A stretch of DNA of 24,078 bases from an uncultured virus (IMG/VR IMGVR_UViG_3300037115_000242) (taxonomy: Duplodnaviria > Heunggongvirae > Uroviricota > Caudoviricetes). The notes under the pieces are model-generated. The model was not told the DNA's origin. It did not search any database and was given only the letters and a program-made list of their open reading frames with translations. The DNA lies in IMG/VR virus record IMGVR_UViG_3300037115_000242. The stretch is one strand, 5' to 3'. Position numbers and translations under genes: made by a program. Below, in pieces: positions 1 through 21,304 of the stretch; the stretch's first letter is position 1; every line of letters starts with the position of its first letter.

Positions 1-61
1 CCGGATAGTGCAACGGGTCGTGCAGCGACTCCCCGAACTTCCAAGATTGACAGGTGGACAT
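1..61 (-). CDS. 5' end of a hypothetical protein running off the window edge (MSTCQSWKFGESLHDPLHYP...)
   Basis: ATG at 61 preceded by a strong AGGAGG Shine-Dalgarno; frame open to position 1. Confidence 0.6.
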   Translation of the reverse strand, partial: MSTCQSWKFGESLHDPLHYP

Positions 62-121
62 CTTCCTCCTAAGGGGACGCCCTAATGCTAGTGACGCAAA
101 TACTTAAATGAGTGGATTGAA

Positions 122-769
122 CTACTGCTGGGCTGGCAGTAAAAGTCGGTACTTGGTCCGCTCGAACAAGGCTGGCTCGATCTCCCACAGTGTGTACTGG
201 TTCCACACCTGTCGTGGCGTCTTCGTTTCGGTGCCGAAGGAAAAGACAGCATCGCGACATTTGTCTCCCTCTTCTTTGGGCAGACTTCTCGCCTGCACAA
301 AAACGTGAGCCATGCGCGACACTTGCTGTAACTCCTCCGGCGGAATCGCCCGAGGACCTTCTTGGATCGCCTGGAACTGCTGACTGAGGAGATTTTGCAA
401 CCCTGGAACGTCCGCTTCGTTGTAGTGATTCTTGCGACGCCACGCGGGACGATGGATGTCCTTCAAACGTTCCTTGTGCTCCTTGACCGCGTCCTTGTAG
501 TACAGGCGAGCACCACCGACGCCTACCGCGAGGTCGGCGACCGCGATGTTGTTAAGCAGGTGGTCGGGCATGTCGACATTCGTCCAGAACTCCAAGACCT
601 GTCGCGCATCGCGAGGAAGAGGCGGGTGAATCGCGGAGCCCTGTGAGTTGTACGACTTGTTGTCGGTCAACTTGACCTCGATGAGGTCAACATCACTTGG
701 CTTGCGGTCTTCTGCAAACTGGCCTCCTATTGGAGTCCCTCTGTGCCGACGTGGAAGATCACTCACCAT
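122..769 (-). CDS. Hypothetical protein with N-terminal GTP-x-GGQF tag
   Basis: 215-aa ORF overlapping the stop of the upstream gene; N-terminus PRRHRGTPIGGQFAEDRKP matches two other ORFs in the window. Confidence 0.8.
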   Translation of the reverse strand: MVSDLPRRHRGTPIGGQFAEDRKPSDVDLIEVKLTDNKSYNSQGSAIHPPLPRDARQVLEFWTNVDMPDHLLNNIAVADLAVGVGGARLYYKDAVKEHKERLKDIHRPAWRRKNHYNEADVPGLQNLLSQQFQAIQEGPRAIPPEELQQVSRMAHVFVQARSLPKEEGDKCRDAVFSFGTETKTPRQVWNQYTLWEIEPALFERTKYRLLLPAQQ

Positions 770-1299
770 GTACTCGATTCATCTAGTCGTTCTTCAAGCG
801 GACTTTCTACGGAGATCGCACTCGGCGCAATGCCAAGTTGTTCTCGGACGATGGCGTCAACGGTCATTGCGAACCAGAGTGAGGCCCACTCGGGACCATC
901 GGTCTCATCGGACAGTCCGACTGATGCGGCGAACTCCCAAAAGATGCTCGCGCCTAAGAGAATGTCGCCGACCGACTCTTGCTTCTCTTTCGGAATCTCT
1001 TGATTCGGGTCGTAGACTTTCCACACGTCATCGAGTAATTCGCGACGCACGTTCGACAAAAAGTTCTTCCACTCTTCGAGAGACTCACTTCCTTCGATGT
1101 ACGCGTGAACCCACTCGGCAAGATCGCTGGCGATTTCCGCGAAGTCGTTGTTGCCTTCATCGGAGAGGAAAGAGTTGGGATACGTCGTTGAACCGACGCA
1201 GAGAGCAACAGTCAACGCGGAGAATTGGCGACATGTTGAATCTTGTGCCCATATGGTCGGCTCGTCACTCGACAGAATGGACAAATCAACAGATGACAT
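763..1299 (-). CDS. Acidic hypothetical protein, probably leaderless
   Basis: 178-aa ORF, D/E-rich; TAGACT lies 6 nt before the ATG and there is no SD. Confidence 0.7.
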   Translation of the reverse strand: MSSVDLSILSSDEPTIWAQDSTCRQFSALTVALCVGSTTYPNSFLSDEGNNDFAEIASDLAEWVHAYIEGSESLEEWKNFLSNVRRELLDDVWKVYDPNQEIPKEKQESVGDILLGASIFWEFAASVGLSDETDGPEWASLWFAMTVDAIVREQLGIAPSAISVESPLEERLDESSTW

Positions 1300-1350
1300 G
1301 CCCGTAGTCTACCCATGCGATGTTGAAAATTGGGTGCTTTTGGTTGCTGA

Positions 1351-1998
1351 TTAGTTGCCCAGTGGTGAAGGTTCGGTGCTCACCAACCACGACCGACCGA
1401 CCTTGGTGAGAGAGACAGAAACCGCGTTCACCGCCGCTCCCGTCACGGGAGGCAGACGTGTCCCGCTACTAGTGAACGAGCCGTACGTCCAGGTGACTTG
1501 CACAACGCAATGAAGGGCGCACGTACCCACTCCTTCGGGCAGTTCTGCATCCGAAATGTATGGATAGATGCCGGTCTTGTCCACCGTTAAGAGCGTCCAC
1601 GCGTTCTTCGATCCAGGGCTGGTGACAGTCCCGTTATGCGTGCTGTCGTAGGCGTAGAACGACGGAGTCTCAAAGGGCTTCGCGAGCACGTCTTCGCCGT
1701 GAAGAATGTTCGGCCACTTGTAGAACTCCGAGTAATAGTTCGTGACCCATTGAGCCGCCGACCAGATCACTGACCCTTTGTCGTTGATGCCATCAGGACC
1801 CGACGGTCCTGTCGTGAAGAGTGTGGTCGTCGTCGTTCCCGGCTTGGTAGTCGTCGTGCTTGGTGACGTCGTAGTCGTTGCGCTTGCTCCACCTCCGGGG
1901 TACGTGGGTGTCGGCGTAGAACGACTCGTGAAATACCAGATGACTGACGTGAGTACGACGACCACGACAACGAGATAGATGACTCCAGTCCGTCTCAT
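1351..1998 (-). CDS. Membrane-anchored exported protein, TcpC/VirB8-like candidate
   Basis: N-terminal TM helix, Thr/Pro linker, C-terminal strand pattern ending VSLTKVGRSWLVS typical of NTF2-like folds; last gene of the transfer operon. Confidence 0.5.
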   Translation of the reverse strand: MRRTGVIYLVVVVVVLTSVIWYFTSRSTPTPTYPGGGASATTTTSPSTTTTKPGTTTTTLFTTGPSGPDGINDKGSVIWSAAQWVTNYYSEFYKWPNILHGEDVLAKPFETPSFYAYDSTHNGTVTSPGSKNAWTLLTVDKTGIYPYISDAELPEGVGTCALHCVVQVTWTYGSFTSSGTRLPPVTGAAVNAVSVSLTKVGRSWLVSTEPSPLGN

Positions 1999-2240
1999 TT
2001 GACTGACCGATGTTCACATACCGTCTGCACGCGAATTGGATAAGCGGCGGGACACGGTTTTCCAGGGGCGCGTTCTATGTACGTGATCGTCACACCCGAC
2101 GTAGTAGTCGTGAGGTTTGAACTCGTGTTCGCTCCACCTCCGACGTACGTGACGGTTTTAAGTGAGCCCGAAAGAAAGAAGGCGAGAGCCATGACCACAA
2201 TGACTACTCCAGATATCCAAAGAGCGGTAGAGCGTTTCAT
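1995..2240 (-). CDS. Small single-TM protein
   Basis: 81 aa, N-terminal hydrophobic helix, C-terminal Cys pair; ATGA overlap with the next gene. Confidence 0.7.
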   Translation of the reverse strand: MKRSTALWISGVVIVVMALAFFLSGSLKTVTYVGGGANTSSNLTTTTSGVTITYIERAPGKPCPAAYPIRVQTVCEHRSVK

Positions 2241-2480
2241 TTACTTGGCCCTCTGTAGATGAGTGTTGATGAAGTTGCGGATGTGAGGAATGATATTTGC
2301 TCCGTTGTGCGTGTAGAGGTACCACGTCACGGCGATCACCACCACGATGAGAATCACCGAGATCAGTCGAGAGAATATCTTGCTCGCCACCGAGAGGAGG
2401 GCTATGAGGATGAGGGCGATGACAATGTGTGGTCCGGTGAGTAACTTCATTTGACTGTTCTCTAACCCCAAGAAATTCAC
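2241..2480 (-). CDS. Small two-TM membrane protein
   Basis: 79 aa hydrophobic hairpin; GTGA overlap with the hydrolase stop, abuts the next gene. Confidence 0.7.
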   Translation of the reverse strand: MNFLGLENSQMKLLTGPHIVIALILIALLSVASKIFSRLISVILIVVVIAVTWYLYTHNGANIIPHIRNFINTHLQRAK

Positions 2481-5176
2481 GCCGCCGCTCCCCCGCCTTC
2501 AAAGCCGTCGCTATACCAAGGAATGATCTGGACGTCGCTGCCTTCTTCAGGAGCCTGAATGATCATTGGCGTGAACGTGGTGACCGTCTGCGTGAACGTG
2601 TTGCCGGTCGGACTGCCCGAGCACGTCGTTGACAACTCCACCAAGCCCGACATCACCTTGGACGTCACACACGAAGAGACAGTGCTGGTTGTGGGCGTGC
2701 CGGTCTGGACCATCCCGAGGAACATCACCACGTGATCGGGAAGTCCCGTTGAGTCAGGGAAGTAGAAGAGGAGGTCACCCGGTTCCATCGTGGTCATGTC
2801 CTGGGAGATACCCGACTGCGCTTGCACGTACTCGTACTGCGCCTGTGACGTTCGAGGCAACGCGACTCCGGCTTTGCCAAAGGAGTATTGGACAAGACCC
2901 GAGCAGTCGAATCCGGGGTCTCCGGTCTGCGTCGCGTACTCAGCGGAGCACGGGTTTCCTGATCCGTAGATCGCGGTCGAGACGACGAAGCCTCCAGAGC
3001 ACGCGGGTGCGCCGTACCCAGCAAGCCCCATGCCTACGCCCGCTGTGCCACCGCCACCGTAGACGTACGGGATGCCAACTTCTGTCTTCGCGGTAGTGAC
3101 GGCGAGTTGCGCCTGCGGACTTCCACCGGGCACGTTGGGAATGTTTGATCCGTAGTTGCACGAGGGCAATGTGTCGGTGAGGCTCTGCACAATGAGTGCC
3201 GCCGCTGACGACCACGGTTGGAGCACGGACACTGACGTCCCGAGCGTCGCGGCCTGTGCCGCTGGTGAAGCACTACGAATCTTGTCGCCCGACAAGAACT
3301 GAGAAACCGCATCGGGCACACTGGTGATGTCGTTGCCGAAGACGCCCGTCGTTGGGTAAAGAGAACTTTGTCCCAGCGTCGATCCAGTGAGTGCGTCAAT
3401 GATCATCGCCTCTTCCGTCGAACTGTTCGCGCCACGAGCCTTGGCAACATTCACGATCTTCTCCGCCAACTGCAACTGCCCCTGTGTGAGCACCAAGGTG
3501 CCGGTAGGACTGGAGACAGTGAGTGAGGTTGGTTGTGAGCCGCCCGTACCGCACGACTGATTTGCCTGAGGAGACCATCCCGCCGCCCAGTCGGTTGCCA
3601 AAAGATAGATGTTCTGATCCATCGTCACGGAGTTGTTCGCAATAGGCAACATGCCAAGAGCCTTGACGACGGCAGAGCGAAGACTCTGCGCCGCCGAGTT
3701 CGTTGGGTCGAACGTCGGTATGACGAGACCGTTCGAGTTCACTCCTTGCAACAGGCTCACGTTGCCTTCGGCTTTTGACTTGTAGAGGTCCTTCGCCAGC
3801 GTGGTGCCGAACCACTCTGAAGAAAGCGAGAGGCTGGTCGCGCTCGCTGCGGGGAGAGCGGTCGTCGTGACGCAATATGGTCCACTGGACTCTGCCGGAC
3901 ACGTGCCACTGCTCGTAGACGAAGGATTCGACGCCGACGTCTTCAGGGCAGTCCCCGTGTACGATCCGGGCACCTCAACGCCAGGGGCTATGGCCGAGAT
4001 AGTGGGCGGTGGACTCTTGCCAGGAGCATTGATCGTGCAAGCATCGTCCCACCCTGGATAGAAACTGTTGGGGTGATTATTGAGGATGAAGAGGGCCGCA
4101 GCATTCTGCGCTGCCGGGGTTGCTTGGTACGGTTGCGACGCACCATATTGCGTGGAGAAACCGTCCGCCACCCACGTTGACTCAAGGATGCCGTACGCAC
4201 CCGATGGCGCACTCGCGCTGTTGTATGCATCACCGGATTCCGCTTGACGAATGCACGCCCAGTCCGCCGTGTCAATGGTGGAGTAGTCCGTCGATGACGG
4301 GTCGATGGTGGCTGGCACTGATCCGTTGCGGCCTACCGCACAGTCAATGCCGACTCCGACGTAACCAACCGACGACACGCACGCACTCGTCGTCGGGGTT
4401 GCTGCCGTACCCGTGCTACTAGGACTCGATGAACCCGCCGACGAAGCGGTGAGAGGAACGACCGATGGGCAAATCGAGTCTGGTGCCGAACCAGCCGGAC
4501 ACGCTCCTCCCGTCTGCGCAACATTGGACCCGACTCCCGTTTCGTAATAGACCGTCGCCGCCATCAACTCCCACGGCGTGATTGATGATTCCGCCGCGTC
4601 CTGAATCGACGCGAGGTTGTTCGCTGGCTCACCCGTACTCGTCGTGGCCGATGAGGTCTGCTGGGCGTTGTTGGCAATGAGTGAGTTCACGGTGGCACCC
4701 ACGCCGAGCAACAGACTGATCCACAAGAAGACAGGCAAGAGCGGCAAGAAGATCAGCGCCAGTATCCAACGACCCTTGGTCGTCGTGAGGACACCTTTGA
4801 CGAGGCCAACGGCTGCACCTTGAAGACCGCCGCCGACGACCGCACCTTCGGCGGACTTTCCGGTGGCCCCCTTAACAGTGTCCTTGAGGATTTTCCCGGT
4901 CTTCGCCTTGGCCGACGTGTTCTTGTTGGCGTCACGTTCCGCCTTGAGACCTTTCGGAGTGAGACCCTTGGCGTCAGGCACACCGACTTTCTTCGCGACC
5001 TTGCCACCGACCTTCTTGGCCGCTTCCGATCCTGCCTTCTTCGTGGCTCCAGCACTCTCTTTGCCGGGTGGTGGCCCAATCGCCTTGTGCTTCTTCTCTA
5101 CGTTCAGCGGAGGTTTGCGACTAGAGACTTTCTTGCCCGCATTCGATGCGGCGTTGGGAAGCCGTGGATCAGACAT
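2477..5176 (-). CDS. Multi-domain conjugative peptidoglycan hydrolase (TM, Rpf-like transglycosylase, C-terminal NlpC/P60)
   Basis: NlpC/P60 motifs GIPYVYGG, GFDCSGLVQY, LPRTSQAQY, PGDLLF, HVVMFLG; Rpf-like WACIRQAESG...GAYGILESTW...ATPAAQ; Lys-rich N-terminus followed by a TM helix. Confidence 0.88.
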   Translation of the reverse strand: MSDPRLPNAASNAGKKVSSRKPPLNVEKKHKAIGPPPGKESAGATKKAGSEAAKKVGGKVAKKVGVPDAKGLTPKGLKAERDANKNTSAKAKTGKILKDTVKGATGKSAEGAVVGGGLQGAAVGLVKGVLTTTKGRWILALIFLPLLPVFLWISLLLGVGATVNSLIANNAQQTSSATTSTGEPANNLASIQDAAESSITPWELMAATVYYETGVGSNVAQTGGACPAGSAPDSICPSVVPLTASSAGSSSPSSTGTAATPTTSACVSSVGYVGVGIDCAVGRNGSVPATIDPSSTDYSTIDTADWACIRQAESGDAYNSASAPSGAYGILESTWVADGFSTQYGASQPYQATPAAQNAAALFILNNHPNSFYPGWDDACTINAPGKSPPPTISAIAPGVEVPGSYTGTALKTSASNPSSTSSGTCPAESSGPYCVTTTALPAASATSLSLSSEWFGTTLAKDLYKSKAEGNVSLLQGVNSNGLVIPTFDPTNSAAQSLRSAVVKALGMLPIANNSVTMDQNIYLLATDWAAGWSPQANQSCGTGGSQPTSLTVSSPTGTLVLTQGQLQLAEKIVNVAKARGANSSTEEAMIIDALTGSTLGQSSLYPTTGVFGNDITSVPDAVSQFLSGDKIRSASPAAQAATLGTSVSVLQPWSSAAALIVQSLTDTLPSCNYGSNIPNVPGGSPQAQLAVTTAKTEVGIPYVYGGGGTAGVGMGLAGYGAPACSGGFVVSTAIYGSGNPCSAEYATQTGDPGFDCSGLVQYSFGKAGVALPRTSQAQYEYVQAQSGISQDMTTMEPGDLLFYFPDSTGLPDHVVMFLGMVQTGTPTTSTVSSCVTSKVMSGLVELSTTCSGSPTGNTFTQTVTTFTPMIIQAPEEGSDVQIIPWYSDGFEGGGAAA

Positions 5177-5179
5177 GGA

Positions 5180-8100
5180 CTACGACTCGTTCATCTCATC
5201 AAAGAAGTGATCCGCTCGTCGATTGAACTCTTCGTTGTCAGCCTCTCTACGAGCATCGTCGTCTTGGCGGGCTGGCGCTACGTCGGGATCGAGCGGGTTG
5301 CCTGAGGAGCGTTCTCTTGGATCAACTGGCTCGCGTGTCGGAGTCTCTCCGCCGGTCTCGACATGAACGGTGCGACTCGTGGGGGTTTGCCATTCGTTCA
5401 AGCGTCGATTGGTGGCATCAACCTCATCAGGGCTCAAGACGTGAGCGTCGTCTGCCGTCGTGTATCTACCATCGGGCGACGTCGTGGGTCCTTGATCGTC
5501 TGGCGTCAATACAGAAGGTTGACGAACAGACCTATCCGGCTTGGTGATTCCATGACGACGAGTGTGCAACTTACGACCAACCGCCGCCGCGCCCACCGCA
5601 CCAGCCGCAATTGCCCCGAGACCAAGAACGCCTGCGCCGACGGGGGCCATCGCAAGACCCACCGTGCCAATCGCGGCATACTTGGCTGACTTTCTACCGG
5701 CGACCGCAACCTTCCCCATTACCGACTTACCCCTCATTGCCTCAAGTGGATGAGGTCCTACGTACTTGGCACCGTTGACCAATCTACTGCCCACCGCTTT
5801 CGCGGTATCTTTCGCTCCGGCGACGCGATGAGTTGCCCCTTCTGCATCACGCTTGCTCATCTTCGCCCGAGCCGCCGCCGAGAAGTTCTTCGCTCTCGCC
5901 GCTGCTGAAACCTTGGTCGTCCCTCGTCCACCGGCTGTCGCACCCTCGACACCAGCGGCGGCTTGTGTAGCGGCTAAACCTTCGGTGGTCGTATCGCCGC
6001 CGGTTGGAGTTCCTCCGGTATCACTGTCTCCGCTGGGCGCTCCAGAACCGGCATCATGCTCTCCGGCTTTCCCGGCACCACTTCCGCTTCCACCGCGACC
6101 TCCACCAGACATTCCGCCTCGACGGTGTCGACCACCACCTCGACGACCAGCAATGGCACCAGCACCAGGTACGCCGTTGTTCGATGCGTAGTTGCCCGCC
6201 ATACGACGAGCCTTGGCCCAGTGACTCTCCAGTTCAGCGCCACCGATGGCACCCAGTGTTCCGGCTGATGCCGCGTATCCCATCACGCTCGATGGCTTGA
6301 AGGGAGACGGAGCCTTCAGAACTTTCTTGAAGAACATGTGGATGATATAGATGGAGACGAGTGGGCAAAGTCCGATCCACAGCAGAGCGAAGATCGAACC
6401 TGGTCCTGCTAGCGCCGAACCAACCGTCGCGAGCATTGATGAGATGCCCGCGATAACTGAAAGCACGAGTCCCACGCACGTTGAGAAGATGACCAGGCTC
6501 AACGTCTTCTTCGCCATCATCAAGAACTTGCCTTCGCTGTTCGCAAACGGCAACAGCATGAAGATCAGCATGATGGGCAACATCAAGAGAAGTAAGAGGA
6601 GCGCGATCTTAGAGATGAGCAACGCAATGGAGAGTCCGAAGAAGACCAGCATGATGATGGTCGAGGAGAACAGGAACAGGAGAGCCGCCGTCTCCGCACT
6701 GACGTTCGACGTGCCGTGCAAGTTGTTCAAGTAATCGGCAATGCCCGCTCCGTACTGCTCTCCGTTGATCGTGCTGGCCGGAGCGCCATCGACCGTCAGA
6801 CTGCTGGGAACTGTGCCCGAGGTATCGCTCTCGATGTTGGCCGGAGTTGCCGCCCACCAGTTGAAGACTGAGTAGTCGGAGTTCGCGATGCCACCGGCCA
6901 TCACCGTCGGCGTCCCGTACGTTGTGCCGCCGTTGTCGTGCACCGGGGTCTCAAAGAATGCTTGACAGTCGTCTGCCGCCACCGCTGCGCTGCCGCTCGG
7001 GGTGACGCTGTTGTCTACTTGGGTCCATTCGGAAGGGCTGATGAGACCACCACTCTGCACGTCCCACTCCATTGGCGTGTCGGTACTCGCGTTGGTTTGA
7101 CACGCGGCCCAACCGACCATCGATTCGTCTTGCGTCTGCGGAGAGATCGCACCGTTCCACGCGAGTGACGACGACGACGAAGAACCGGTGCTACCAAGAA
7201 TCCCGCCGCTCACGGCCCCCGAACTTTGATCGTACGTTCCGGCGAGAGAGGGCGACTCCGAGAGAGCAATCGCCGCGCTCTCCATCTGCGCCTGATATCT
7301 CGGACGGATACCCGCGTTCTGTTCAAGAAGGTGACAGTACGAGAGCAAGCCGAAGTTGTTGCTCGAACCGAACTGCTCCTCGACGTAAGTAGGAACCGCG
7401 AGACCCTCCCACAGTGTGTTGAGGGCTATGGGGACAGCGGCGTAGTTCGAGCCCACACCAGCACTGCCTCCATCGGCGGCGGAGACTCCGCCCGCCGCGC
7501 CCGAGTAGGTGTCAACGAGAGCCTCGTTGTAGTAGTAGCAGTTGAGCGGATCGCCAAGAGCCTGTCCGCCGCCATTCGCCCCAATGCCCGACACGGCAGC
7601 GGCCATGAGTTCGGTTGGTTTGGATGTGATCGCACTCACGGTTCCGTACACGGTATTGAGTATCCACGCGGGAGAGAAGGTGGGATCGGGATTTGTCGCC
7701 GTTGTCGCTGACGAAGCGTTGATCATCAAGGTGAAAATCGCCACCACAACGACAATGCGAAAGAGACTGCTGAGGAGACCTTTGCCACTGCCGCGTATCC
7801 GACTGATGAGCAGAGCCACGAGAGCGACGATGACGACAATGACGATGATGTTGCCCTGGACGAGCGCATTGTCAAACGCCGCCGACGCACTGTCCACCGC
7901 CGTGCCGACTGATGACGAGATGCAGAAATTGTTCGCGAACTCTGTTGATGAGACACCGAGCCCCCACTCGGTGTCGCCTGCTGACATTAGCGGGGAGATC
8001 AGTCCACTGCGCTGGGCGTAGGCAATGTCGTTGCCGATGTTGAAGCCGAGTGAAAGATCGGTGTGCGTCGTTCCGAGCGAGCCAAGCCAACGATTCGCTG

Positions 8101-8353
8101 GCAGGTAGTTCGATGCGGTGGTCGAGGCCGCGACACTGCTTGCGGTTGAGGTCGGACAAAGAGTCGTAGCCCCGGTGGTCGCGGCGGGAGTGGTGGTGGG
8201 TGGTGTCGTTCCGGCTGATGCGGACGAGACGGCGATGAAGAGGGGAAAGATCGAGGCAACGAGTAGCGCAAGGAAGCCTTTAACTACTCGTTGAGACCAC
8301 ACCTTTCTCATGCTTTCGTCTTTCTTCACGCATTCTGGTCGCTCCGTTTGCAC
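5180..8353 (-). CDS. Large polytopic conjugation membrane protein, VirB6/TcpH-like (alternative start ATG 8311)
   Basis: Signal-like N-terminus, several TM clusters, large extracellular Cys-containing loop, Gly-rich/charged cytoplasmic tail; lies between pilin-like and hydrolase genes. Confidence 0.65.
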   Translation of the reverse strand: MQTERPECVKKDESMRKVWSQRVVKGFLALLVASIFPLFIAVSSASAGTTPPTTTPAATTGATTLCPTSTASSVAASTTASNYLPANRWLGSLGTTHTDLSLGFNIGNDIAYAQRSGLISPLMSAGDTEWGLGVSSTEFANNFCISSSVGTAVDSASAAFDNALVQGNIIVIVVIVALVALLISRIRGSGKGLLSSLFRIVVVVAIFTLMINASSATTATNPDPTFSPAWILNTVYGTVSAITSKPTELMAAAVSGIGANGGGQALGDPLNCYYYNEALVDTYSGAAGGVSAADGGSAGVGSNYAAVPIALNTLWEGLAVPTYVEEQFGSSNNFGLLSYCHLLEQNAGIRPRYQAQMESAAIALSESPSLAGTYDQSSGAVSGGILGSTGSSSSSSLAWNGAISPQTQDESMVGWAACQTNASTDTPMEWDVQSGGLISPSEWTQVDNSVTPSGSAAVAADDCQAFFETPVHDNGGTTYGTPTVMAGGIANSDYSVFNWWAATPANIESDTSGTVPSSLTVDGAPASTINGEQYGAGIADYLNNLHGTSNVSAETAALLFLFSSTIIMLVFFGLSIALLISKIALLLLLLMLPIMLIFMLLPFANSEGKFLMMAKKTLSLVIFSTCVGLVLSVIAGISSMLATVGSALAGPGSIFALLWIGLCPLVSIYIIHMFFKKVLKAPSPFKPSSVMGYAASAGTLGAIGGAELESHWAKARRMAGNYASNNGVPGAGAIAGRRGGGRHRRGGMSGGGRGGSGSGAGKAGEHDAGSGAPSGDSDTGGTPTGGDTTTEGLAATQAAAGVEGATAGGRGTTKVSAAARAKNFSAAARAKMSKRDAEGATHRVAGAKDTAKAVGSRLVNGAKYVGPHPLEAMRGKSVMGKVAVAGRKSAKYAAIGTVGLAMAPVGAGVLGLGAIAAGAVGAAAVGRKLHTRRHGITKPDRSVRQPSVLTPDDQGPTTSPDGRYTTADDAHVLSPDEVDATNRRLNEWQTPTSRTVHVETGGETPTREPVDPRERSSGNPLDPDVAPARQDDDARREADNEEFNRRADHFFDEMNES

Positions 8354-8366
8354 ACCTTGAGTGGGC

Positions 8367-8669
8367 TTATCCGCCGAATGCCTTTAGAACGATATTGCAA
8401 ATCCCATCAACAACGTCCAAGAGGTAGCCGATGAACGTGCTGGGGTCCGACAGAATCATTCCGAGGATCACGGTCAGAATCAATCCAATGTGATTCCCTC
8501 GCTGGCCTTTGCGACGGTCCATGATGTACTTGACCGCCGAGAAGATGACCAAGAGCACACCAACGAAAGCCATCCACTTCGTGACCACTCCGATGCCAGA
8601 GGCTCCACTCAAGGTGGTCCAAAAACTCTGCCAACTGGAGGTGAAGTCCACGGTCGCTGCTACTAACAT
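8367..8669 (-). CDS. Pilin-like (VirB2-like) two-TM protein
   Basis: 100 aa, two hydrophobic helices separated by a basic loop RRKGQRG; SD AAGGGAG; leads the transfer operon. Confidence 0.55.
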   Translation of the reverse strand: MLVAATVDFTSSWQSFWTTLSGASGIGVVTKWMAFVGVLLVIFSAVKYIMDRRKGQRGNHIGLILTVILGMILSDPSTFIGYLLDVVDGICNIVLKAFGG

Positions 8670-8700
8670 TGGTGACTCCCTTTAGTTCGTCTGTTCTTTG

Positions 8701-8710
8701 TTATGGGTGC
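8701..8710 (-). promoter_or_regulatory. GCACCCATAA motif, copy 1
   Basis: Exact 10-mer, intergenic, 31 nt upstream of ATG 8669. Confidence 0.6.
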
Positions 8711-8733
8711 GAGATGACGAATTTCTCATACCT

Positions 8734-8874
8734 TTAGATGCCGAACGCAGTGAGAATCGCAAACACGACGAGTAACGCCGCTATTCCGAGGATCACGTAG
8801 AGGCCACGACCGTCCCGCCACTCCGCAATTTCCCGTTTTTCTCTCGCTGTTTTAGAGAACTTCTCTTCGTTCAT
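8734..8874 (-). CDS. 46-aa tail-anchored membrane peptide (MNEEKFSKTAREKREIAEWRDGRGLYVILGIAALLVVFAILTAFGI), below the ORF-track cutoff
   Basis: Hand-translated; ATGA overlap with the stop at 8871; clean C-terminal TM; fills the gap. Confidence 0.75.
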   Translation of the reverse strand: MNEEKFSKTAREKREIAEWRDGRGLYVILGIAALLVVFAILTAFGI

Positions 8875-9308
8875 CCCTGCAAGAGTACATCGGAATAATC
8901 TCCGGCTGGGCGACTATCGAGCATTGGATTGGGCATTGAACTGGAGACCAACGTTCCCCATTTTCCACCCAAAGGATCGACTTGAACGCCACAACACGTG
9001 AACTTGCCCACGTTTGAACGACGTCGGTCGAGAAGTGACTGATATTGACGAAGGTGAAGACCACTCCTCGTCCTGCTTTCGATGAGCCAGAACACTGCAC
9101 CTTCAATGATGAACAGCATGGAGAAGCCGTAGGTGCCGATCAATTGATACGCGATGAGTGAGGCGAAAAGACCGGGAAGAAATCCGATGGCCGCGATGAT
9201 GAGACCCCGAGCCGGTAAGTCGAGACCTTGGATCACGACTCGACGTTGCGACGATGACTTACGTGTGAGGTTGGTGAGGGTATAGACCTTCATCCGGGCA
9301 AGGGCCAC
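8871..9308 (-). CDS. TcpE/PrgI/VirB3-like conjugation membrane protein
   Basis: 145 aa; basic N-terminus KVYTLT...IQGLDLP, two TM helices, basic tail; upstream of pilin-like and VirB6-like genes. Confidence 0.55.
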   Translation of the reverse strand: MALARMKVYTLTNLTRKSSSQRRVVIQGLDLPARGLIIAAIGFLPGLFASLIAYQLIGTYGFSMLFIIEGAVFWLIESRTRSGLHLRQYQSLLDRRRSNVGKFTCCGVQVDPLGGKWGTLVSSSMPNPMLDSRPAGDYSDVLLQG

Positions 9309-9637
9309 TAACGAACGACCTCGAAGACGTGACCGACGAGCCGATACTGAGTGTCCGGTTCGAGATCGCCACCGATGTTTCCGGTCACCGTGTAGCGGAC
9401 ATCCGGGGCGTCTTCATCTTCACCCATGATGGAGATCGATCCGCCTTCACCGGCTTGCGCGGTTCCACCGATTCCGGTGATGGCGACACCACTGGGTCCT
9501 ACTGAGGAGATGCCGTCGTCACCCGAGATGGCAATGCCGTAGACGCCCGCCTGAGCGAGTCCACCGTCACCGGCAATGGCAACCCCGTTGTCACCGGCAA
9601 TGGATTCTTCTCCGTAGCCGCTCAGTTCACGAGCCAC
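9308..9637 (-). CDS. Gly-rich octapeptide-repeat protein (phage-type x-A-x-A-G-x-x-G repeats)
   Basis: Seven 8-aa repeats and C-terminal GNIGGDLEPDTQYRL; start reassigned to GTG 9637 by TAGTG overlap with the upstream stop. Confidence 0.7.
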   Translation of the reverse strand: MARELSGYGEESIAGDNGVAIAGDGGLAQAGVYGIAISGDDGISSVGPSGVAITGIGGTAQAGEGGSISIMGEDEDAPDVRYTVTGNIGGDLEPDTQYRLVGHVFEVVR

Positions 9638-10560
9638 TACCGGCGCTCCGCGATGCTCATGGAAACAGCCCACAGGTTGTCCCCGTAGTTCGGGTGCCGC
9701 GTAATCACTTCGCACACTAAGTCCTTTTCGTCTTCACTAAGAGTACCGAATGGTGCAAAGAGTGATTCGCTGTCGAGCAATCCGCGCTGGAACATCTCCG
9801 CGCACTTCACCGCGCCACCGCGCTCTTTGACGTCGGTGCGGAGTGTCGTCGCTTGGCGCTTCGGGATGGTCGCACCGAGTGGTCGTGGTGCAGGTCCGGC
9901 CACCGCGTCCCACGCCATCTGGCGAGCGGCAATGGGGTCCTTCTCCACGGTCTTCATGGTGAATGACGCCACCGAGTCTTCGTCGAACTCATCAAGGTTG
10001 ACCTCAACGACTTCGTTGGCTCCGACCGCTTCGACCCGACGCAACACGTGGTCGTTGCCACCGTTGTGGTTGTACTCGGTCGCGTCGCCGGTCGTCGTGA
10101 ACGACGTCTCCATCACTCGACGATGGAAACCATGCGAGGGTGGGTACTTCGTCGTCTTCTCTCGAATATCGGCAGCGATGGCATCTTCCTCGATTGGGGT
10201 GAGGAGTCGACCAAGACGGTTCATCTCGCTCGCGCACGTGTCGTGGTACTCACGCAGTGCCCCGTCGTCGCGGTGATTCGAGCGACCCTTCATCGCGGCA
10301 ATGGCGGCGAACTTGCAGGCGGAGTTGATCGAGGCTTCGTTGACCACTCGGTCAGGGTTCTTCACCACGCTGGAGAACGTGAGCAATGCCTCTTGCATAA
10401 TGTCGTCCGCGTCCGCGCCGACGTACTTGCGAGCGTAGGTCTTCGACCATTTCCTGGCCCATGCCACGGTCGTTTCGAGTTCACCACCGTCGGGACGTCG
10501 GTTCTCCGCGTACTGTCCACCGGCCTTCGGTGTTCCCTTGGGTACTCGTGGTTGGCTCAT
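9637..10560 (-). CDS. Sigma-70-family-like protein (regions 2 and 3-like) with N-terminal GGQY tag
   Basis: Start reassigned to ATG 10560 (SD GAAGGGA); ARKY-VGADADDIMQEALL resembles region 2.1-2.2 and RLGRLLTPIEEDAIA resembles region 3 LGRxPTxEE; no clear region 4 HTH. Confidence 0.55.
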   Translation of the reverse strand: MSQPRVPKGTPKAGGQYAENRRPDGGELETTVAWARKWSKTYARKYVGADADDIMQEALLTFSSVVKNPDRVVNEASINSACKFAAIAAMKGRSNHRDDGALREYHDTCASEMNRLGRLLTPIEEDAIAADIREKTTKYPPSHGFHRRVMETSFTTTGDATEYNHNGGNDHVLRRVEAVGANEVVEVNLDEFDEDSVASFTMKTVEKDPIAARQMAWDAVAGPAPRPLGATIPKRQATTLRTDVKERGGAVKCAEMFQRGLLDSESLFAPFGTLSEDEKDLVCEVITRHPNYGDNLWAVSMSIAERR

Positions 10561-10586
10561 GTAATTCCCTTCGGTTCTTCCTTCTA

Positions 10587-10596
10587 TTATGGGTGC
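10587..10596 (-). promoter_or_regulatory. GCACCCATAA motif, copy 2
   Basis: Exact 10-mer, intergenic, 26 nt upstream of ATG 10560. Confidence 0.6.
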
Positions 10597-10642
10597 GAAA
10601 TGTGACATCTTGTGGGATTCCGTTATCCCTCAAGGAGATGGC

Positions 10643-11192
10643 CTACGGAGTGGCCCTTGGGATGCTGTAGCCGTTCTCGGTGGCCCAGTCGAAGAAGTAA
10701 TCGACCTCCTGCGCCCGAAGATCGGCGAGACCTTTGATGTCAGCAGGATCGTTCAAATTGAAGTACAGATCGACGACTTCGGATACCTCTTCACGCTGAG
10801 TGTCCTCGCTGATGTCGTCGTCGTACAGAGCCTCGTCGAGAATTTCGTTGCGGATGGACTGACTGAAACTGTCTTGATTTTGATTCGCGTCCGCCAACTT
10901 TTTCTGGAGGGCTTCGATCATCATAGATTTCTGAAAGTCGATATCTTGATAACGACTTGACAACTTCTCGTAGTGCTTGGCGTGATCCAAGGGAGTCAAC
11001 GTGCCATTCTCGTCCGCTTGACGGTGGGCACGGATGAGTTCATCAATCGAATTCGACGTCTCCATGATCAAATCCTCACGATCAGCAAGCGTCGTGGGCT
11101 CAAAGTCATTGTCGAGATCGCTACCGTCAGGTCTGCGTCCTTCTGAGAACTGTCCGCCGACGGGGGGTGCCCTTCGGTTGTCGATTCGTCAT
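10643..11192 (-). pseudogene. Acidic protein with N-terminal GGQF tag, frameshifted in a C6 run (true lesion or sequencing error)
   Basis: SD GAAGGAG + ATG 11192 reads MTNRQPKGTP; removing one C from the run at 11162-11167 continues VGGQFSEGRRPDGSDLD... in frame into ORF 10643..11071. Confidence 0.75.
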
Positions 11193-11217
11193 CTTCGCTC
11201 CTTCGTCTCACCCTTAG

Positions 11218-11227
11218 TTATGGGTGC
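11218..11227 (-). promoter_or_regulatory. GCACCCATAA motif, copy 3
   Basis: Exact 10-mer, intergenic, 25 nt upstream of ATG 11192. Confidence 0.6.
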
Positions 11228-11235
11228 AACAACGT

Positions 11236-13395
11236 TTAGTCGCGAAACATAGCCTTTCGCACCTGGCGATGCCGGGGGTCGTCCGCGTTCTGCCAACTGT
11301 CATCGTGAATCCACGTGAGGTGCGTGGTGTGTCGAGAAGCCATGACACAGAGACGTCCGAGCGACTGCGCGTGCTCGCTGTTGTCCTCGCCCATCATGGG
11401 ATCGAGCGCCACTACCGACGTCCACTCGCCACCCTGGAGGCGGTCGGCAGTACCGATGCGCACCGGATAGTCGTGAAGCATGGCGGTGAGAATGGTGGCT
11501 TGCGAGTTCCGTGAGACGATGGCCGCGACAGTGCCGCAGTCCGTCAGTGCTCGCGCTCGATGCGCCATGACAGTGAGCGCGTTGATATCGTCGGCGGTCT
11601 CCACTCTCGGTACTTCGATGGCTTCGACTTCACGTACCGGCTGTCCATCGACCGTCACCAGTTCGCGCTCAAGGCACGCACTCTCGAACTTGAAGTCGTA
11701 GAGCGGAGCCACCACACCGGCTGACACCGGACCGAGGCGATACGTCGTAGAGAGGGCGAACCGCGCTACGTCTTTCGTGAACATCATCGACGGAGCCGGA
11801 AGGAAAGGACCATGCCCCGTCTTCCAGAATGACGTGTCAACGGTGATGACTGGTCCAATCTGTCCGGGGTCGCCCACCATGAGCAACTGAGGGATGCCAC
11901 TGCGAGCGCGAATCACCGCCGCGTAGGTCGCTTGGTACGCCTCATCGACGATCATCAAGTCGTAGGACTCACTGTCCTTGGCGATGCGAGCACCCGCGAG
12001 CGTGCGAACGACGACGACAGGATCGACACCCTTGATGTCCTCCGCGTCGCGACCGCTGTTGCTCATCATCAGGCATACGCGGTCACCGATGACTGCGTAG
12101 ATGCGGTCGTAGAGCGAAAGTACCTGTGCGCGAGTGAACGCGCAGACGAGAATCTGCATATCGGTTCGCGTGGTGAGTTGCTCCACGACGTCAACAATCA
12201 GACTCGTGTTGTGGGTGACCATCAAACCATTGCCGCAGAGGAACAGGTGGTTGGGAGAGTCGACTTGAATGCACTGAGTCGGAACCGAGGCAACTGGCGT
12301 GACCGTGAGATAGCGATTATTTGTTCGCGTTCCATTGCAGGTCGACATTGCTTTTCTCGGGAGTCGAGCGGCCCCTTCTAGATAAAAGGTCACTCGATAC
12401 TTTGGTCCACAATCGCGACCATTGAGTGTGGCGCGTCCTTCGGAGAGCGATGCCTTCACGCCAAGACTCCGGGCGAGAAACTGAACGCCTTGAGCGAGAT
12501 TCAGTTTTGTCGACATGAATTCGATCATGCCGTGTCGTTCTCCAGCAACGTGTCCATCGGTGTCAATGAGACCTTGCAGAAGCGCAAGGCGCTGTTCTTT
12601 CGATGCTCGAAAATAGGCGTCAGGAATGTGCTTGTTGTTCAACAGCCCAGCAACGCGAAGTTGCTTTTGTAAGCCAAGTATCCCAATGGTGATTGGGTCC
12701 TTGCGCTCGGTCGTGACATAACCGGCTTCCTCAATGAACTGGCGCATCCACTTCTGGTCTTCGACCGATGATGTGATTGCACCACATGATGCAGTGCCAT
12801 CGCCAAGCCAAGCGCCTAAGACGTACGGGTCAATAGGAAGTTCTGCGTGTGGTAGTTCCAGTGGCTTTGCGAGGTTCAATCGCGGTCTCTTGCTTCGTGG
12901 AGTCTCTGCCAAACAACGAGTGGTGTGATTATGAACTCCACTGCCAATCCCGCGAAGTATTGGTCCAGTCTTTCCGGGGTAGTGAGGTATCGCTTGTTTT
13001 GCGACTTTCTTAGGATTCTCCAACATGACGGGCCAGAGGTGGTCGGCATCAGCGATGACACTCTCCCCATCGTCGGTTGAGACCTCAAAACAGTCATGAT
13101 CGTAGAAAATTTCTGACTTGAACGTCACGGTGCAGGGGTTCCCTTGCTCGTCGATGAGTTGGTCGCCGATCTGGACATCGCCCATTGTCGTCCAACCAGT
13201 TGGCGTGGGGAGTGGTGTATCAAGAGCCAGTGCTTTACCTGCCCCCGGAGGACTGTCCACCACCACGTCGTGACCGCGCCAGATTCTCTCTAGCGTCTTG
13301 GCGAGAACGGAGCCAACCTCTAGGGGCTTGTGGAGAGGGGTGTCAGCATAGATTGTCGCAACGCTATTGCCGGTGGTGTCCTTCTTTATGAGCAT
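11236..13395 (-). CDS. Superfamily 1 (Upf1/DNA2-like) helicase containing an intein
   Basis: SPPGAGK|T Walker A split by the intein; IVDEAYQ, VGDPGQIGP, TYRL, TADRLQGGE and RLCVMASRH motifs. Confidence 0.9.
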   Translation of the reverse strand: MLIKKDTTGNSVATIYADTPLHKPLEVGSVLAKTLERIWRGHDVVVDSPPGAGKALALDTPLPTPTGWTTMGDVQIGDQLIDEQGNPCTVTFKSEIFYDHDCFEVSTDDGESVIADADHLWPVMLENPKKVAKQAIPHYPGKTGPILRGIGSGVHNHTTRCLAETPRSKRPRLNLAKPLELPHAELPIDPYVLGAWLGDGTASCGAITSSVEDQKWMRQFIEEAGYVTTERKDPITIGILGLQKQLRVAGLLNNKHIPDAYFRASKEQRLALLQGLIDTDGHVAGERHGMIEFMSTKLNLAQGVQFLARSLGVKASLSEGRATLNGRDCGPKYRVTFYLEGAARLPRKAMSTCNGTRTNNRYLTVTPVASVPTQCIQVDSPNHLFLCGNGLMVTHNTSLIVDVVEQLTTRTDMQILVCAFTRAQVLSLYDRIYAVIGDRVCLMMSNSGRDAEDIKGVDPVVVVRTLAGARIAKDSESYDLMIVDEAYQATYAAVIRARSGIPQLLMVGDPGQIGPVITVDTSFWKTGHGPFLPAPSMMFTKDVARFALSTTYRLGPVSAGVVAPLYDFKFESACLERELVTVDGQPVREVEAIEVPRVETADDINALTVMAHRARALTDCGTVAAIVSRNSQATILTAMLHDYPVRIGTADRLQGGEWTSVVALDPMMGEDNSEHAQSLGRLCVMASRHTTHLTWIHDDSWQNADDPRHRQVRKAMFRD
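12208..13233 (-). mobile_element. Class 3 intein (342 aa) with LAGLIDADG homing endonuclease
   Basis: Starts ALALDTPLPTPTGW, block B DADHLW, LAGLIDADG helices LGAWLGDG and LQGLIDTDG, block F TQCIQV, ends THN before Thr+1. Confidence 0.92.
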
Positions 13396-20782: not shown

Positions 20783-20856
20783 GACTGAAATTGCAAGGTG
20801 TGAACTATGAACATGATATGGTGTGAATAATGAATTCCAGAGAGGAGGTGAAAATT

Positions 20857-21243: not shown

Positions 21244-21254
21244 GTAATTAAACG

Positions 21255-21304
21255 CCGGGAGGGTGATCGTTGTCGCGCACAACGAGGACGGTCGCCCTCA
21301 CCGG
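21255..21304 (+). terminator. Imperfect GC-rich hairpin between the Pra-like and membrane genes
   Basis: CCGG-GAGGGTGATCGT...ACGGTCGCCCTC-A-CCGG pairs with two G.U wobbles; followed by ATCTTT. Confidence 0.4.

What the first reader, a model, noticed from the sequence alone, without database searches (positions are those of the whole stretch)
122..11192. Shared N-terminal GTP-x-GGQ[FY] tag on three unrelated proteins flanking a transfer cluster: candidate cargo-addressing signal
Seen: ORF 769 starts PRRHRGTPIGGQFAEDRKPSDVDL, ORF 10560 starts PRVPKGTPKAGGQYAENRRPDGGEL, and ORF 11192 (after frameshift repair) starts RQPKGTPVGGQFSEGRRPDGSDL. The consensus is R-x-x-[KR]-G-T-P-x(1-2)-G-G-Q-[FY]-[AS]-E-x-R-[KR]-P-x-x-x-[DE]-L, and I see no similarity among the three beyond about residue 30. 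The DNA is diverged while the peptide is conserved, pointing to protein-level selection. From recall, similar GGQF peptides occur on phage and plasmid hypotheticals, with no function known to me. Inference: a portable tag that routes cargo to the transfer apparatus, to a particle, or onto the transferred DNA for delivery into the recipient.
Basis: partly seen in the sequence, partly recalled or inferred. Interest (0 to 1): 0.85.

Follow-up and report, generated by a model that had tools for sequence, protein, structure and literature searches.

The report
Shared leader peptide on plasmid-transfer proteins
Three unrelated proteins in this mobile element start with the same short peptide, and that peptide heads dozens of otherwise unrelated proteins in a family of large conjugative elements of Actinobacteria, so it looks like an undescribed address label for proteins that travel with transferred DNA.

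Summary
In the window the peptide occurs three times, always at an N-terminus (ORFs starting at 769, 10560 and 11192; the last is broken by one extra C). The three proteins are alike only in the tag.

A profile of the tag finds 2971 protein clusters in 1.84 billion. Single elements carry many copies: 46 on the 427-kb Pseudarthrobacter plasmid pACHL01, 36 in Arthrobacter terrae, and 16 in one integrated element of an Acidimicrobiaceae chromosome.

- All 93 copies I located in DNA lie 1-18 codons after a start codon.
- The cargos are diverse: 41 clusters among 114 proteins. All lack membrane-like segments and most are acidic.
- They include ArdC-like, pentapeptide, Fic, DNA ligase, CCA-enzyme, DUF2958, DUF7007 and a sigma-like factor.
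- Synonymous codons vary freely, so selection acts on the peptide.
- All hosts are T4SS elements of Actinomycetota. None of 400 other sampled genomes of the phylum has it.
- The same motif sits internally, 4-9 times, at module junctions of phage or unassigned polyvalent proteins.

No Pfam or NCBIfam model, and no paper I could search, describes it. Best reading, at about 0.4: a per-module leader for proteins delivered with DNA.

The parts
683..769 (-). Tag copy 1: first 29 residues of ORF 122-769
   Evidence: Translation; HMM E 1.5e-11
122..769 (-). Tagged protein 1 (215 aa, P0001 family). No known domain. Conserved just downstream of the VirB6-like gene in three other elements.
   Evidence: No Pfam, PHROG or NCBIfam hit. 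tblastn synteny in the G004 ICE, G005 C45 and pACHL01. Atlas search uninformative.
10477..10560 (-). Tag copy 2: first 28 residues of ORF 9637-10560
   Evidence: HMM E 9e-10
9637..10560 (-). Tagged protein 2 (307 aa), possibly a divergent sigma-70-like factor. Conserved upstream of the transfer cluster.
   Evidence: Orthologues keep the tag. Synteny in 3 elements and in L086/L087. Weak Sigma70_r2 hit, E 0.004, for the pACHL01 orthologue. The AF2 model is all-helical with a disordered tag. Foldseek's top 50 are nearly all sigma factors, but with E >= 0.13.
11114..11192 (-). Tag copy 3, interrupted by one extra C in the C-run 11162-11167
   Evidence: Sequence; two HMM pieces in adjacent frames
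10643..11192 (-). Tagged protein 3 (acidic, no known domain), frameshifted here. It lies in a variable slot that holds 0, 1 or 5 tagged genes in relatives.
   Evidence: Intact P0008 is 172/173 identical. Slot comparison with L086 and L087.
5180..8353 (-). VirB6/TrbL-like (CD3337/EF1877-like) large membrane protein of the transfer apparatus
   Evidence: Weak Pfam TrbL hit and NCBIfam hit. 27-38% identity to syntenic genes in 3 elements.
2477..5176 (-). NlpC/P60 cell-wall hydrolase of the transfer cluster
   Evidence: Pfam hit, E 2.6e-13; NCBIfam
8367..9715 (-). Three small conserved genes between tagged protein 2 and the VirB6-like gene (8367-8669, 8871-9308, 9308-9715)
   Evidence: Conserved in order in the G004 ICE; 8871-9308 is also conserved in G005 and pACHL01
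763..1299 (-). 178-aa gene next to tagged protein 1, syntenic in the G004 ICE

Best explanation
The roughly 25-30-residue peptide has the form M-x(2-5)-R-[QV]-P-K-G-x-[PST]-x-G-G-Q-[FYW]-A-x(4-5)-[EP]-x(3-4)-L. I read it as a portable, intrinsically disordered N-terminal leader. It marks soluble, mostly acidic 'establishment' proteins of one family of large T4SS elements of Actinomycetota for delivery into the recipient cell together with the DNA. These proteins include anti-restriction and DNA-mimic proteins, enzymes that modify host targets, tRNA and DNA repair enzymes, and a sigma-like factor.

On this reading each free-standing protein presents the leader at its N-terminus to the coupling machinery. 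The conserved operon of a T4CP, a 465-aa protein and an FtsK-like ATPase lies directly upstream of the biggest tagged-gene arrays. In phages the same modules, each still headed by the leader, are strung behind one MuF capsid-packaging domain as a polyvalent protein. So the leader is a per-module handle of proteins that travel with DNA.

Shown here: the portability of the tag, its position, the selection on it, its restriction to these elements, the nature of the cargo, and the link to polyvalent junctions.

Inferred only: that the tagged proteins are transferred, that the leader is what is recognised, and by what.
For: (1) Portability and position.
- The profile search found 118 proteins, 104 of them with E < 1e-6 in a database of 5.8 billion.
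- 114 of 120 proteins carry one copy within the first 45 residues. The cargos form 41 BLAST clusters.
- All 93 of 93 copies located in DNA have a start codon 1-18 codons upstream and an ORF of 38-683 aa downstream.
- Of the best 150 among 2971 representative hits, 122 start at residue 1.

(2) Protein-level selection. The invariant R, P, G, G, G positions use 4-6 synonymous codons. Of codon pairs encoding the same amino acid, 40-53% differ.

(3) Restriction to these elements.
- The DNA pattern gave 28 loci in 185,579 species genomes, all Actinomycetota by record title.
- 0 of 400 other sampled Actinomycetota genomes have it. 10 of 200 other Micrococcaceae have it.
- Copies cluster on megaplasmid scaffolds or inside one ICE.

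(4) T4SS context. T4CP, VirB4, a VirB6-like protein and a hydrolase are conserved in all examined elements. On pACHL01, T4CP, the 465-aa protein and the FtsK-like ATPase are followed on the same strand by an array with 19 tags. G005 C45 has the same layout.

(5) Cargo typical of proteins known or proposed to be delivered with DNA.
- ArdC-N+M78, pentapeptide, GNAT, CCA enzyme+HD, KTSC, DUF7007 and DUF7226.
- Fic, LPD29, a ParB-like nuclease, DUF2958 and an NAD-dependent ligase.
- No cargo of 114 has a membrane-like segment, and 76% have pI < 5.5. On pACHL01, 0% of tagged cargos have such a segment against 25% of other ORFs.

(6) A slot upstream of the sigma-like gene holds 0, 1 or 5 tagged genes in three related elements.

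(7) The tag is modelled as disordered, with pLDDT < 50.
Against: - The same motif heads modules inside a MuF polyvalent protein and two neighbouring ORFs of an actinophage head-gene cluster. There are 6 and 4 internal copies in two phage loci and none is N-terminal. Those loci share no other protein with the T4SS elements. A receptor specific to the T4SS therefore cannot explain every occurrence.
- Two of the three window proteins, and the ligase, are conserved backbone genes rather than swappable cargo.
- Known T4SS signals are C-terminal or internal, as cited in PMC8406263 (passages read).
- If these arrays are leading-region genes expressed in the recipient, no protein transfer is needed.
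- No transfer, binding or processing has been observed.
- My ORF calls for the charge and membrane-segment comparison are crude.
Confidence: 0.4

Rival explanations
1. Processing or stability signal. The motif marks where polyvalent proteins are cut into modules. On free-standing proteins it gives the same defined N-terminal end, which then controls maturation or lifetime. One form of this: a cut that exposes the invariant aromatic residue as an N-degron, so that delivered effectors act only briefly.
For: - There are 4-9 internal copies exactly at module junctions in proteins of 972-2713 aa.
- In these proteins the conserved region extends 6 residues upstream ([FY]-[DN]-P-x-Q-P). A cut there would leave an N-terminus of the same length as in the stand-alone proteins.
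- Iyer et al. 2017 propose processing of polyvalent proteins by zincin-like peptidases (PMC5512222, abstract and passages).
- Earlier notes of this scan read other junction motifs as cut sites.
- The aromatic position is always F, Y or W.
Against: - A cut site has no obvious use at the extreme N-terminus of more than 100 single-module proteins, yet it is strongly conserved there.
- No protease is shared by the phage and the T4SS elements.
- DUF2201, a putative metallopeptidase, was not found in the G004 ICE stretch I compared.
- No cleavage has been observed.
Confidence: 0.2
2. Docking motif for a conserved host or element hub, acting after arrival or after expression in the new cell. The short linear motif would bring every tagged module to one partner, such as a chaperone, the incoming DNA or SSB, RNA polymerase or a protease. 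This would work whether the module arrived by phage ejection, by T4SS, or was made from leading-region genes.
For: - The motif is used by both a phage and T4SS elements that share nothing else.
- It is a bipartite, disordered linear motif.
- Its second half changes by host lineage: AEGRKPxGGDL, AATxHxEPxxxL and AxxxNPESTxxL. That is as expected if a partner co-evolves.
- Many cargos act on DNA or tRNA.
- The arrays are co-oriented, like the anti-defence leading regions described in PMC11541004 (listing and start of abstract only).
Against: - A docking motif does not require the strict N-terminal position, yet it holds in 93 of 93 copies.
- No partner was identified.
- The tag profile has no PDB match.
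- The motif does not fit the clamp-binding or SSB-tail motifs as I recall them. That comparison is from memory and was not tested.
Confidence: 0.2
3. DNA-level feature. The shared sequence is a repeated nucleotide element, such as a recombination site, a translation-initiation region or a product of gene conversion, and the peptide is a by-product.
For: - The copies lie at gene starts in tight co-oriented arrays.
Against: - Invariant residues use 4-6 synonymous codons, and 40-53% of same-residue codon pairs differ within one replicon.
- The peptide is conserved across elements with 57-69% GC and across two classes of Actinomycetota.
Confidence: 0.03
4. Simple paralogy. The tagged proteins are diverged members of one family and the N-terminus is merely its best-conserved part.
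For: Some cargos do form families or share shuffled modules; the largest clusters have 15 and 11 members.
Against: - BLASTP among the three window proteins aligns only the tag.
- There are 41 cargo clusters.
- The cargos have unrelated Pfam folds: ligase, Fic, ArdC-N, pentapeptide, PolyA_pol, GNAT.
Confidence: 0.02

Closest known systems
Polyvalent proteins of phages and conjugative elements (Iyer, Burroughs, Anand, de Souza, Aravind 2017, PMC5512222)
   Same: - The domain repertoire overlaps: ArdC-N+peptidase, ART, GNAT, LPD29, DUF2958-type and MuF.
- The proposed role is the same: proteins delivered with DNA at invasion.
- The tag is the same motif that stands at module junctions of 12 large polyvalent proteins among the best 150 hits and in a phage MuF protein.
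   Different: - Here the modules are separate genes, each with the motif at its own N-terminus, up to 46 per replicon.
- My text searches of that paper for linker, conserved motif, N-terminal motif and glycine found no such motif described. 'Cleavage' gave only unrelated passages.
Protein translocation by conjugative T4SS (pED208: ParA, ParB, SSB, PsiB, PsiA; the 'F plasmid conjutome'; PMC8406263, PMC11288057)
   Same: Plasmid-encoded maintenance and anti-SOS proteins are sent to recipients through the conjugation channel, and the receptor is the VirD4-type coupling protein.
   Different: - Those substrates share no sequence-defined N-terminal tag.
- The known signals are the internal TSA/TSB of relaxases or positively charged C-terminal tails (PMC8406263 passages; PMC11288057 listing only).
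- Transfer is not shown here.
Anti-defence leading regions of conjugative plasmids (Samuel et al. 2024, PMC11541004)
   Same: Co-oriented islands of anti-restriction and other anti-defence genes sit next to the transfer functions.
   Different: - That work concerns gene position and early expression, not a shared peptide. I saw only the listing and the start of the abstract.
- oriT, and hence the leading end, are not located here.
N-terminal handles shared by many effectors: PE/PPE and LXG domains (T7SS), the prePAAR motif (T6SS), the capsid-targeting sequence of phage T4 internal proteins (all recalled, not tested)
   Same: One conserved N-terminal element sits on many unrelated cargos and addresses them to one export or packaging machine.
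   Different: - Those are folded domains of 100-200 aa, or work with other machines.
- None resembles this peptide as I recall them.
- No T7SS, T6SS or capsid genes are in the elements examined.

Membership tests
Polyvalent protein (Iyer et al. 2017) | Two or more domains of disparate activity in one polypeptide | tested here: not met
   The three window proteins and the 114 N-tagged proteins are single-cargo proteins of 76-486 aa. Only the internal-motif proteins meet this feature.
Polyvalent protein (Iyer et al. 2017) | Encoded by phages or conjugative elements and drawn from the polyvalent domain repertoire | tested here: met
   T4SS elements. Cargos include ArdC-N+M78, LPD29, DUF2958, GNAT, ParB-like nuclease and Fic.
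Canonical T4SS translocation signal | C-terminal positively charged tail, or an internal TSA/TSB or BID-type domain | tested here: not met
   The motif is at the extreme N-terminus in 93 of 93 copies. The signal types are as cited in PMC8406263.
Canonical T4SS translocation signal | Binds the coupling protein and is needed for transfer | not testable with these tools
No experiment has been done.
Double-glycine leader (bacteriocin/PCAT type; features recalled) | Leader of 15-30 aa ending in GG, small peptide cargo, and an adjacent ABC transporter with a C39 peptidase | tested here: not met
   Conservation continues about 15 residues past GG. Cargos reach 700 aa. No ABC/C39 gene is among the window's Pfam hits.
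Sec or Tat signal peptide (features recalled) | Hydrophobic core after a basic N-region, or a twin-arginine motif | tested here: not met
   The tag is Gly/Pro-rich and polar. None of the 114 tagged proteins has a hydrophobic 19-residue window downstream of the tag.
Pup-like C-terminal GGQ (feature recalled) | GGQ/GGE at the extreme C-terminus of a small modifier protein | tested here: not met
   Here GGQ lies at residues about 12-17 of longer proteins.
Sigma-70 family (for tagged protein 2 only) | Recognisable region 2 and region 4 | tested here: inconclusive
   Sigma70_r2 scores E 0.004, below the cut-off, for the pACHL01 orthologue. The window protein has no Pfam hit. The model has two helical domains. 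Foldseek's top hits are sigma factors, but at E >= 0.13.

The most novel reading that the evidence does not exclude
This would be the first sequence-defined substrate leader of a conjugative T4SS in Gram-positive bacteria. An N-terminal peptide would let one element send dozens of different proteins (a readable 'conjutome' of up to 46 per plasmid) into the recipient ahead of or with its DNA. It would also explain the junction motifs of phage and plasmid polyvalent proteins: they would be per-module delivery leaders rather than mere linkers or cut sites.
Probability: 0.3. Interest if true: 0.9.

Novelty: new variant of a known kind. Interest (0 to 1): 0.8.

Why it matters
How conjugation systems choose protein substrates is poorly understood, above all in Gram-positive bacteria. 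What the junctions of polyvalent proteins do has been open since 2017. Here one short peptide lists, by sequence alone, the candidate delivered proteins of a whole family of large actinobacterial elements. Most of them, 37 of 45 on pACHL01, have no known domain, so they form a ready catalogue of candidate anti-defence and host-takeover functions.

The peptide also gives a simple handle for experiments (reporter fusions, pull-downs) and perhaps for delivering proteins between cells. In addition, pACHL01-type megaplasmids, typed as non-mobilizable, carry a full set of transfer genes.

Tried and rejected
- Megablast of window 1-12000 against the plasmid and phage collections: no match.
- Scan of genome contigs with the protein-2 family alignment: 47 pattern matches, none confirmed.
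- Scan of viral contigs with the tag alignment: 8 pattern matches, none confirmed.
- tblastn of a 26-aa tag, and of a 29-aa phage-type junction, against the phage collection: no match at E <= 10. The low-complexity filter may hide some matches.
- Tag profile against PDB sequences: nothing at E <= 10.
- Pfam and NCBIfam on tagged proteins: no model covers the tag.
- Literature searches for the strings GGQF, GGQFA, QPKGTP, RQPKG and the junction strings PNQPR, NQPRD, PSQPR, PDQPR, QPRAPKG and QPRDPKG: only unrelated papers. pACHL01 is named in 3 papers with unrelated titles.
- Jamet et al. 2017 (PMC5576092): no occurrence of linker, motif, cleavage or junction.
- The whole genome of the window is not held.
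- PF02534 (T4CP family) found no match on pACHL01, although RefSeq annotates one there.
- The FtsK-like 1416-aa protein has one FtsK domain only, so an EccC-like (T7SS) reading was dropped.
- Atlas search for tagged protein 1: no usable hit.
- My metagenome DNA pattern was too narrow and gave only 3 loci.

Full report
**1. The observation**

The window (57% GC) carries genes mostly on the minus strand from 122 to about 18,600. Translating ORF 122-769(-) and ORF 9637-10608(-) shows the reported peptide.

Four orthologues of the second protein begin at the Met encoded at 10560 and keep the peptide, so 10560 is the true start.

The third gene starts at the ATG at 11192-11190. It reads M-T-N-R-Q-P-K-G-T-P and then loses its frame in a run of six C (11162-11167). 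With five C it would continue V-G-G-Q-F... to the stop at 10643. An intact 182-aa version (P0008) exists elsewhere and is 172/173 identical after the break. The break is therefore recent, or a homopolymer sequencing error.

GGQ[FYW] occurs only three times in all six frames. A profile built mostly from other genomes finds only these three places in the window (E 1.5e-11; E 9e-10; two pieces at about 1e-4). The next best hit is E 0.18. BLASTP among the three proteins aligns only residues about 4-29.

**2. Surroundings**

Pfam, PHROGs and NCBIfam identify:
- an NlpC/P60 hydrolase (2477-5176);
- a large VirB6/TrbL-like, CD3337/EF1877-like membrane protein (5180-8353);
- a superfamily-1 helicase with a LAGLIDADG intein (11236-13395);
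- a DUF2201 protein with VWA and putative metallopeptidase domains (13662-14963);
- a MoxR-type AAA_5 ATPase (17231-18343);
- a cpYpsA SLOG protein (19418-19981);
- a short FtsK-like ATPase (21987-22739);
- a tyrosine integrase (22942-24078).

This is an integrative conjugative element of the Gram-positive T4SS type. It has no close DNA relative in the plasmid or phage collections.

**3. How far the peptide reaches**

A profile of seven N-termini, searched against longer proteins in a 5.8-billion-protein set, returned 118 proteins, 104 of them with E < 1e-6.

I examined 120 proteins: these 118 plus the two window proteins.
- 114 carry one copy within the first 45 residues. In 107 of them the G of the K-G pair is residue 7-12.
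- The other six are P0061, which probably has an over-extended start, and five large proteins with internal copies.
- The parts after the tag fall into 41 single-linkage BLAST clusters.

Of 50 N-tagged representatives, 9 have a Pfam hit and 41 have none. The hits are ArdC-N+M78 peptidase, pentapeptide repeats, PolyA_pol+HD (by NCBIfam a CCA-adding enzyme), GNAT, KTSC, DUF7007, DUF7226, a left-handed beta-helix and a weak DnaJ-type zinc finger.

An exhaustive HMMER search of 1.84 billion representatives with a 40-sequence profile gave 2971 proteins at E <= 0.001 and 100 at E <= 1e-10. Of the 150 listed:
- 122 have the match starting at residue 1, and 14 more start at residues 2-34;
- 12 are proteins of 972-2713 aa with 4-9 internal copies;
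- the remaining two are one apparent two-gene fusion and one with the match at residue 75.

**4. Which replicons**

tblastn of a 26-aa tag found no phage record. It found 8 plasmids, four of them Micrococcaceae megaplasmids with 6-16 places each.

The profile finds 46 places on pACHL01, the 427-kb plasmid of Pseudarthrobacter chlorophenolicus A6.

A degenerate DNA pattern for R-Q-P-[KR]-G-[TI]-P-x-G-G-Q-F-A has about 0.01 chance matches expected, by my own estimate assuming even base composition. It gave 28 loci among 185,579 species genomes. By record title these are Arthrobacter, Pseudarthrobacter, Sinomonas, other Micrococcaceae, 'Actinomycetes' MAGs and Acidimicrobiaceae MAGs.

Per genome the profile finds:
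- 36 copies in Arthrobacter terrae, on two scaffolds of about 190 kb;
- 27 in one Acidimicrobiaceae MAG;
- 16 in a complete Acidimicrobiaceae chromosome, all between 2.20 and 2.285 Mb;
- 3 and 1 in two other MAGs.

None of 400 other Actinomycetota genomes sampled evenly has a match at E <= 1e-4 (at most 18 candidates were scored per genome). 10 of 200 other Microchoccaceae genomes do, two of them with 10 and 16 copies (one single-copy genome is flagged unpublished).

**5. Position and selection**

A regular expression for the core found 15, 19, 12, 45 and 2 copies in the Acidimicrobiaceae element, the two A. terrae scaffolds, pACHL01 and the window. This expression misses the frameshifted third window copy. 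All 93 have a start codon 1-18 codons upstream, usually 4-7, and an open frame of 38-683 residues after them.

Within each replicon the invariant R, P, G, G, G positions use 4-6 synonymous codons, and 40-53% of same-residue codon pairs differ. The peptide is what is conserved, not the DNA.

The first half (R-x-P-K-G-x-P-x-G-G-Q-F-A) is common to all. The second half differs by lineage: AEGRKPxGGDL in the window's clade, AATxHxEPxxxL in Micrococcaceae, and AxxxNPESTxxL in Acidimicrobiaceae.

In an AlphaFold model of tagged protein 2 the tag has pLDDT below 50.

**6. The elements are one family of large T4SS elements**

The Acidimicrobiaceae element is bounded by an integrase at 2,287,244-2,288,425, with housekeeping genes beyond it. 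It shares a long backbone with A. terrae and pACHL01:
- a VirD4-type coupling protein (821 aa), a 465-aa protein and an FtsK-like ATPase (1416 aa) in a row;
- a VirB4-like AAA_10 ATPase;
- the VirB6-like protein;
- cell-wall hydrolases;
- a DnaE-like polymerase, SSB and an NAD-dependent ligase;
- helicases with inteins;
- the MoxR ATPase.

The window's block is syntenic in all three. The block runs: tagged protein 2, three small genes, the VirB6-like gene, then further on the 178-aa gene and tagged protein 1. So two of the three window proteins are conserved members of the transfer cluster.

Tagged protein 2 may be a divergent sigma factor. The evidence is a Sigma70_r2 hit at E 0.004 for the pACHL01 orthologue, a model with two helical domains, and Foldseek top hits that are nearly all sigma factors but not significant.

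On pACHL01 the coupling protein, the 465-aa protein and the FtsK-like ATPase are followed on the same strand by an array running from 228 to 200 kb that holds 19 tags. A. terrae has the same layout.

Two closer relatives of the window (55-74% protein identity) show that the place of the broken third gene is a variable slot. It holds no tagged gene in one relative and five in the other.

**7. What is tagged**

On pACHL01, 8 of 45 tagged proteins have Pfam hits and 37 have none. The hits are Fic, a ParB-like nuclease, LPD29 ('large polyvalent protein-associated domain 29'), DUF2958 twice, DUF7007, an NAD-dependent DNA ligase and a PolyA_pol+HD enzyme.

In the Acidimicrobiaceae element the tagged set includes DUF2958, DUF7007 and ArdC-N+M78.

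None of 114 cargos has a hydrophobic 19-residue window, and 76% have pI below 5.5. On pACHL01 the tagged cargos have a median pI of 4.8 and 0% membrane-like segments, against 6.6 and 25% for other ORFs (my ORF calls are crude).

**8. The link to polyvalent proteins and phages**

The large hits carry the motif in a longer form, [FY]-[DN]-P-x-Q-P-R-x-P-K-G-x3-G-G-[QR]-W, before each module. The modules include ADP-ribosyltransferases, GNAT, JAB-like domains (by eye) and Acb1. One protein also has a shorter form, Q-P-R-D-x2-G-R-W.

P0059 has a MuF domain followed by four motif-headed modules. It lies between the portal gene and the protease, major-head and major-tail genes of an IMG/VR contig with 68% GC. 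That phage locus has 6 copies of the motif and a relative has 4. All are internal. These loci share no other protein with the T4SS elements.

So the modules come in two forms. In T4SS elements they are separate genes, each with the motif at its own N-terminus. In phages they are strung behind one packaging domain.

Earlier notes of this scan describe other, unrelated junction motifs in phage polyvalent proteins and read them mostly as cut sites. They are unchecked leads. The present case adds that one such motif also works at a free N-terminus.

**9. Mechanism**

The data fit a per-module leader of proteins that enter a new cell with the DNA. The supporting points are the strict N-terminal position, the disorder, the soluble acidic cargo, the cargo types, the restriction to these elements, and the adjacency to the coupling-ATPase operon.

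I put about 0.4 on delivery through the T4SS, with the leader as the recognised element. Against this stand the phage copies, which need no T4SS, and the lack of any shown transfer.

The main rivals are:
- a processing or lifetime signal (0.2);
- a docking motif for a host or element hub used after arrival or after early expression (0.2).

A DNA-level repeat and simple paralogy are rejected. The complex prediction that might have shifted these odds was unavailable.

**10. Novelty**

No Pfam or NCBIfam model covers the tag and no PDB sequence matches it. None of the literature string searches found it. Text searches in Iyer et al. 2017 and Jamet et al. 2017 found no description of such a motif. 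I could not see the supplements of these papers, and subscription journals are not in the library.

I rate it a new variant of a known kind: a shared N-terminal handle on effectors, and junctions of polyvalent proteins. It is of high interest because it makes two open questions directly testable.

Noticed in passing
window 11236-13395 (-): The superfamily-1 helicase carries a LAGLIDADG/Hom_end intein at about residues 55-395. In relative L086 residues 1-54 and 396-717 align back to back, so that copy is an intein-free allele. Helicases of the related elements also carry inteins.
   Followed up: partly
window 13662-14963 and 17231-18343 (-): A DUF2201 protein (VWA plus putative metallopeptidase) and a MoxR AAA_5 ATPase. 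MoxR is conserved (45-60% identity) in all related elements. DUF2201 is conserved in A. terrae and pACHL01 but was not found in the Acidimicrobiaceae stretch compared. Their role in these elements is unknown, and the peptidase is a candidate tag-processing enzyme.
   Followed up: partly
window 20830-24078 (+): A short FtsK/TraB-like ATPase (250 aa) and a tyrosine integrase, with two small ORFs before them. They have no counterpart in the related megaplasmids. This could be the element's own integration end or a separate small AICE-like element.
   Followed up: no
window 11162-11167: The third tagged gene is broken by a run of 6 C where 5 would keep the frame. Sequencing error, recent pseudogene or slippage-prone switch cannot be told apart here.
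   Followed up: partly
window 9637-9715: The 3' end of tagged gene 2 overlaps the listed GTG start of the next ORF (9308-9715) by 79 bases. The true start of that ORF is probably further downstream.
   Followed up: no
L087 6147-9289; L086; window 10643-11192: The site just upstream of the sigma-like tagged gene is a variable slot. It holds 0, 1 (broken) or 5 tagged genes in three related elements.
   Followed up: yes
NC_011879.1 (pACHL01) 230623-240257 and 325000-373000: PLSDB types this plasmid as non-mobilizable, yet it encodes a coupling protein, an FtsK-like ATPase, a VirB4-like ATPase, a VirB6-like protein and a CHAP hydrolase. It also carries its own DnaE, SSB and ligase, plus tRNA-related enzymes (CCA-type enzyme, Thg1-like, peptidyl-tRNA hydrolase).
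   Followed up: partly
NC_011879.1 303213-305318; G005 C45 107328-109436: The plasmid-borne NAD-dependent DNA ligase carries the tag in Micrococcaceae plasmids. Its orthologue in the Acidimicrobiaceae element (716 aa) does not appear to.
   Followed up: partly
P0122 (2078 aa): This polyvalent protein has two segments with H-x-H-P-x-G-type motifs that look JAB/RadC-like by eye. JAB peptidases cut after Gly-Gly, which might bear on the invariant GG of the motif. This was not tested.
   Followed up: no
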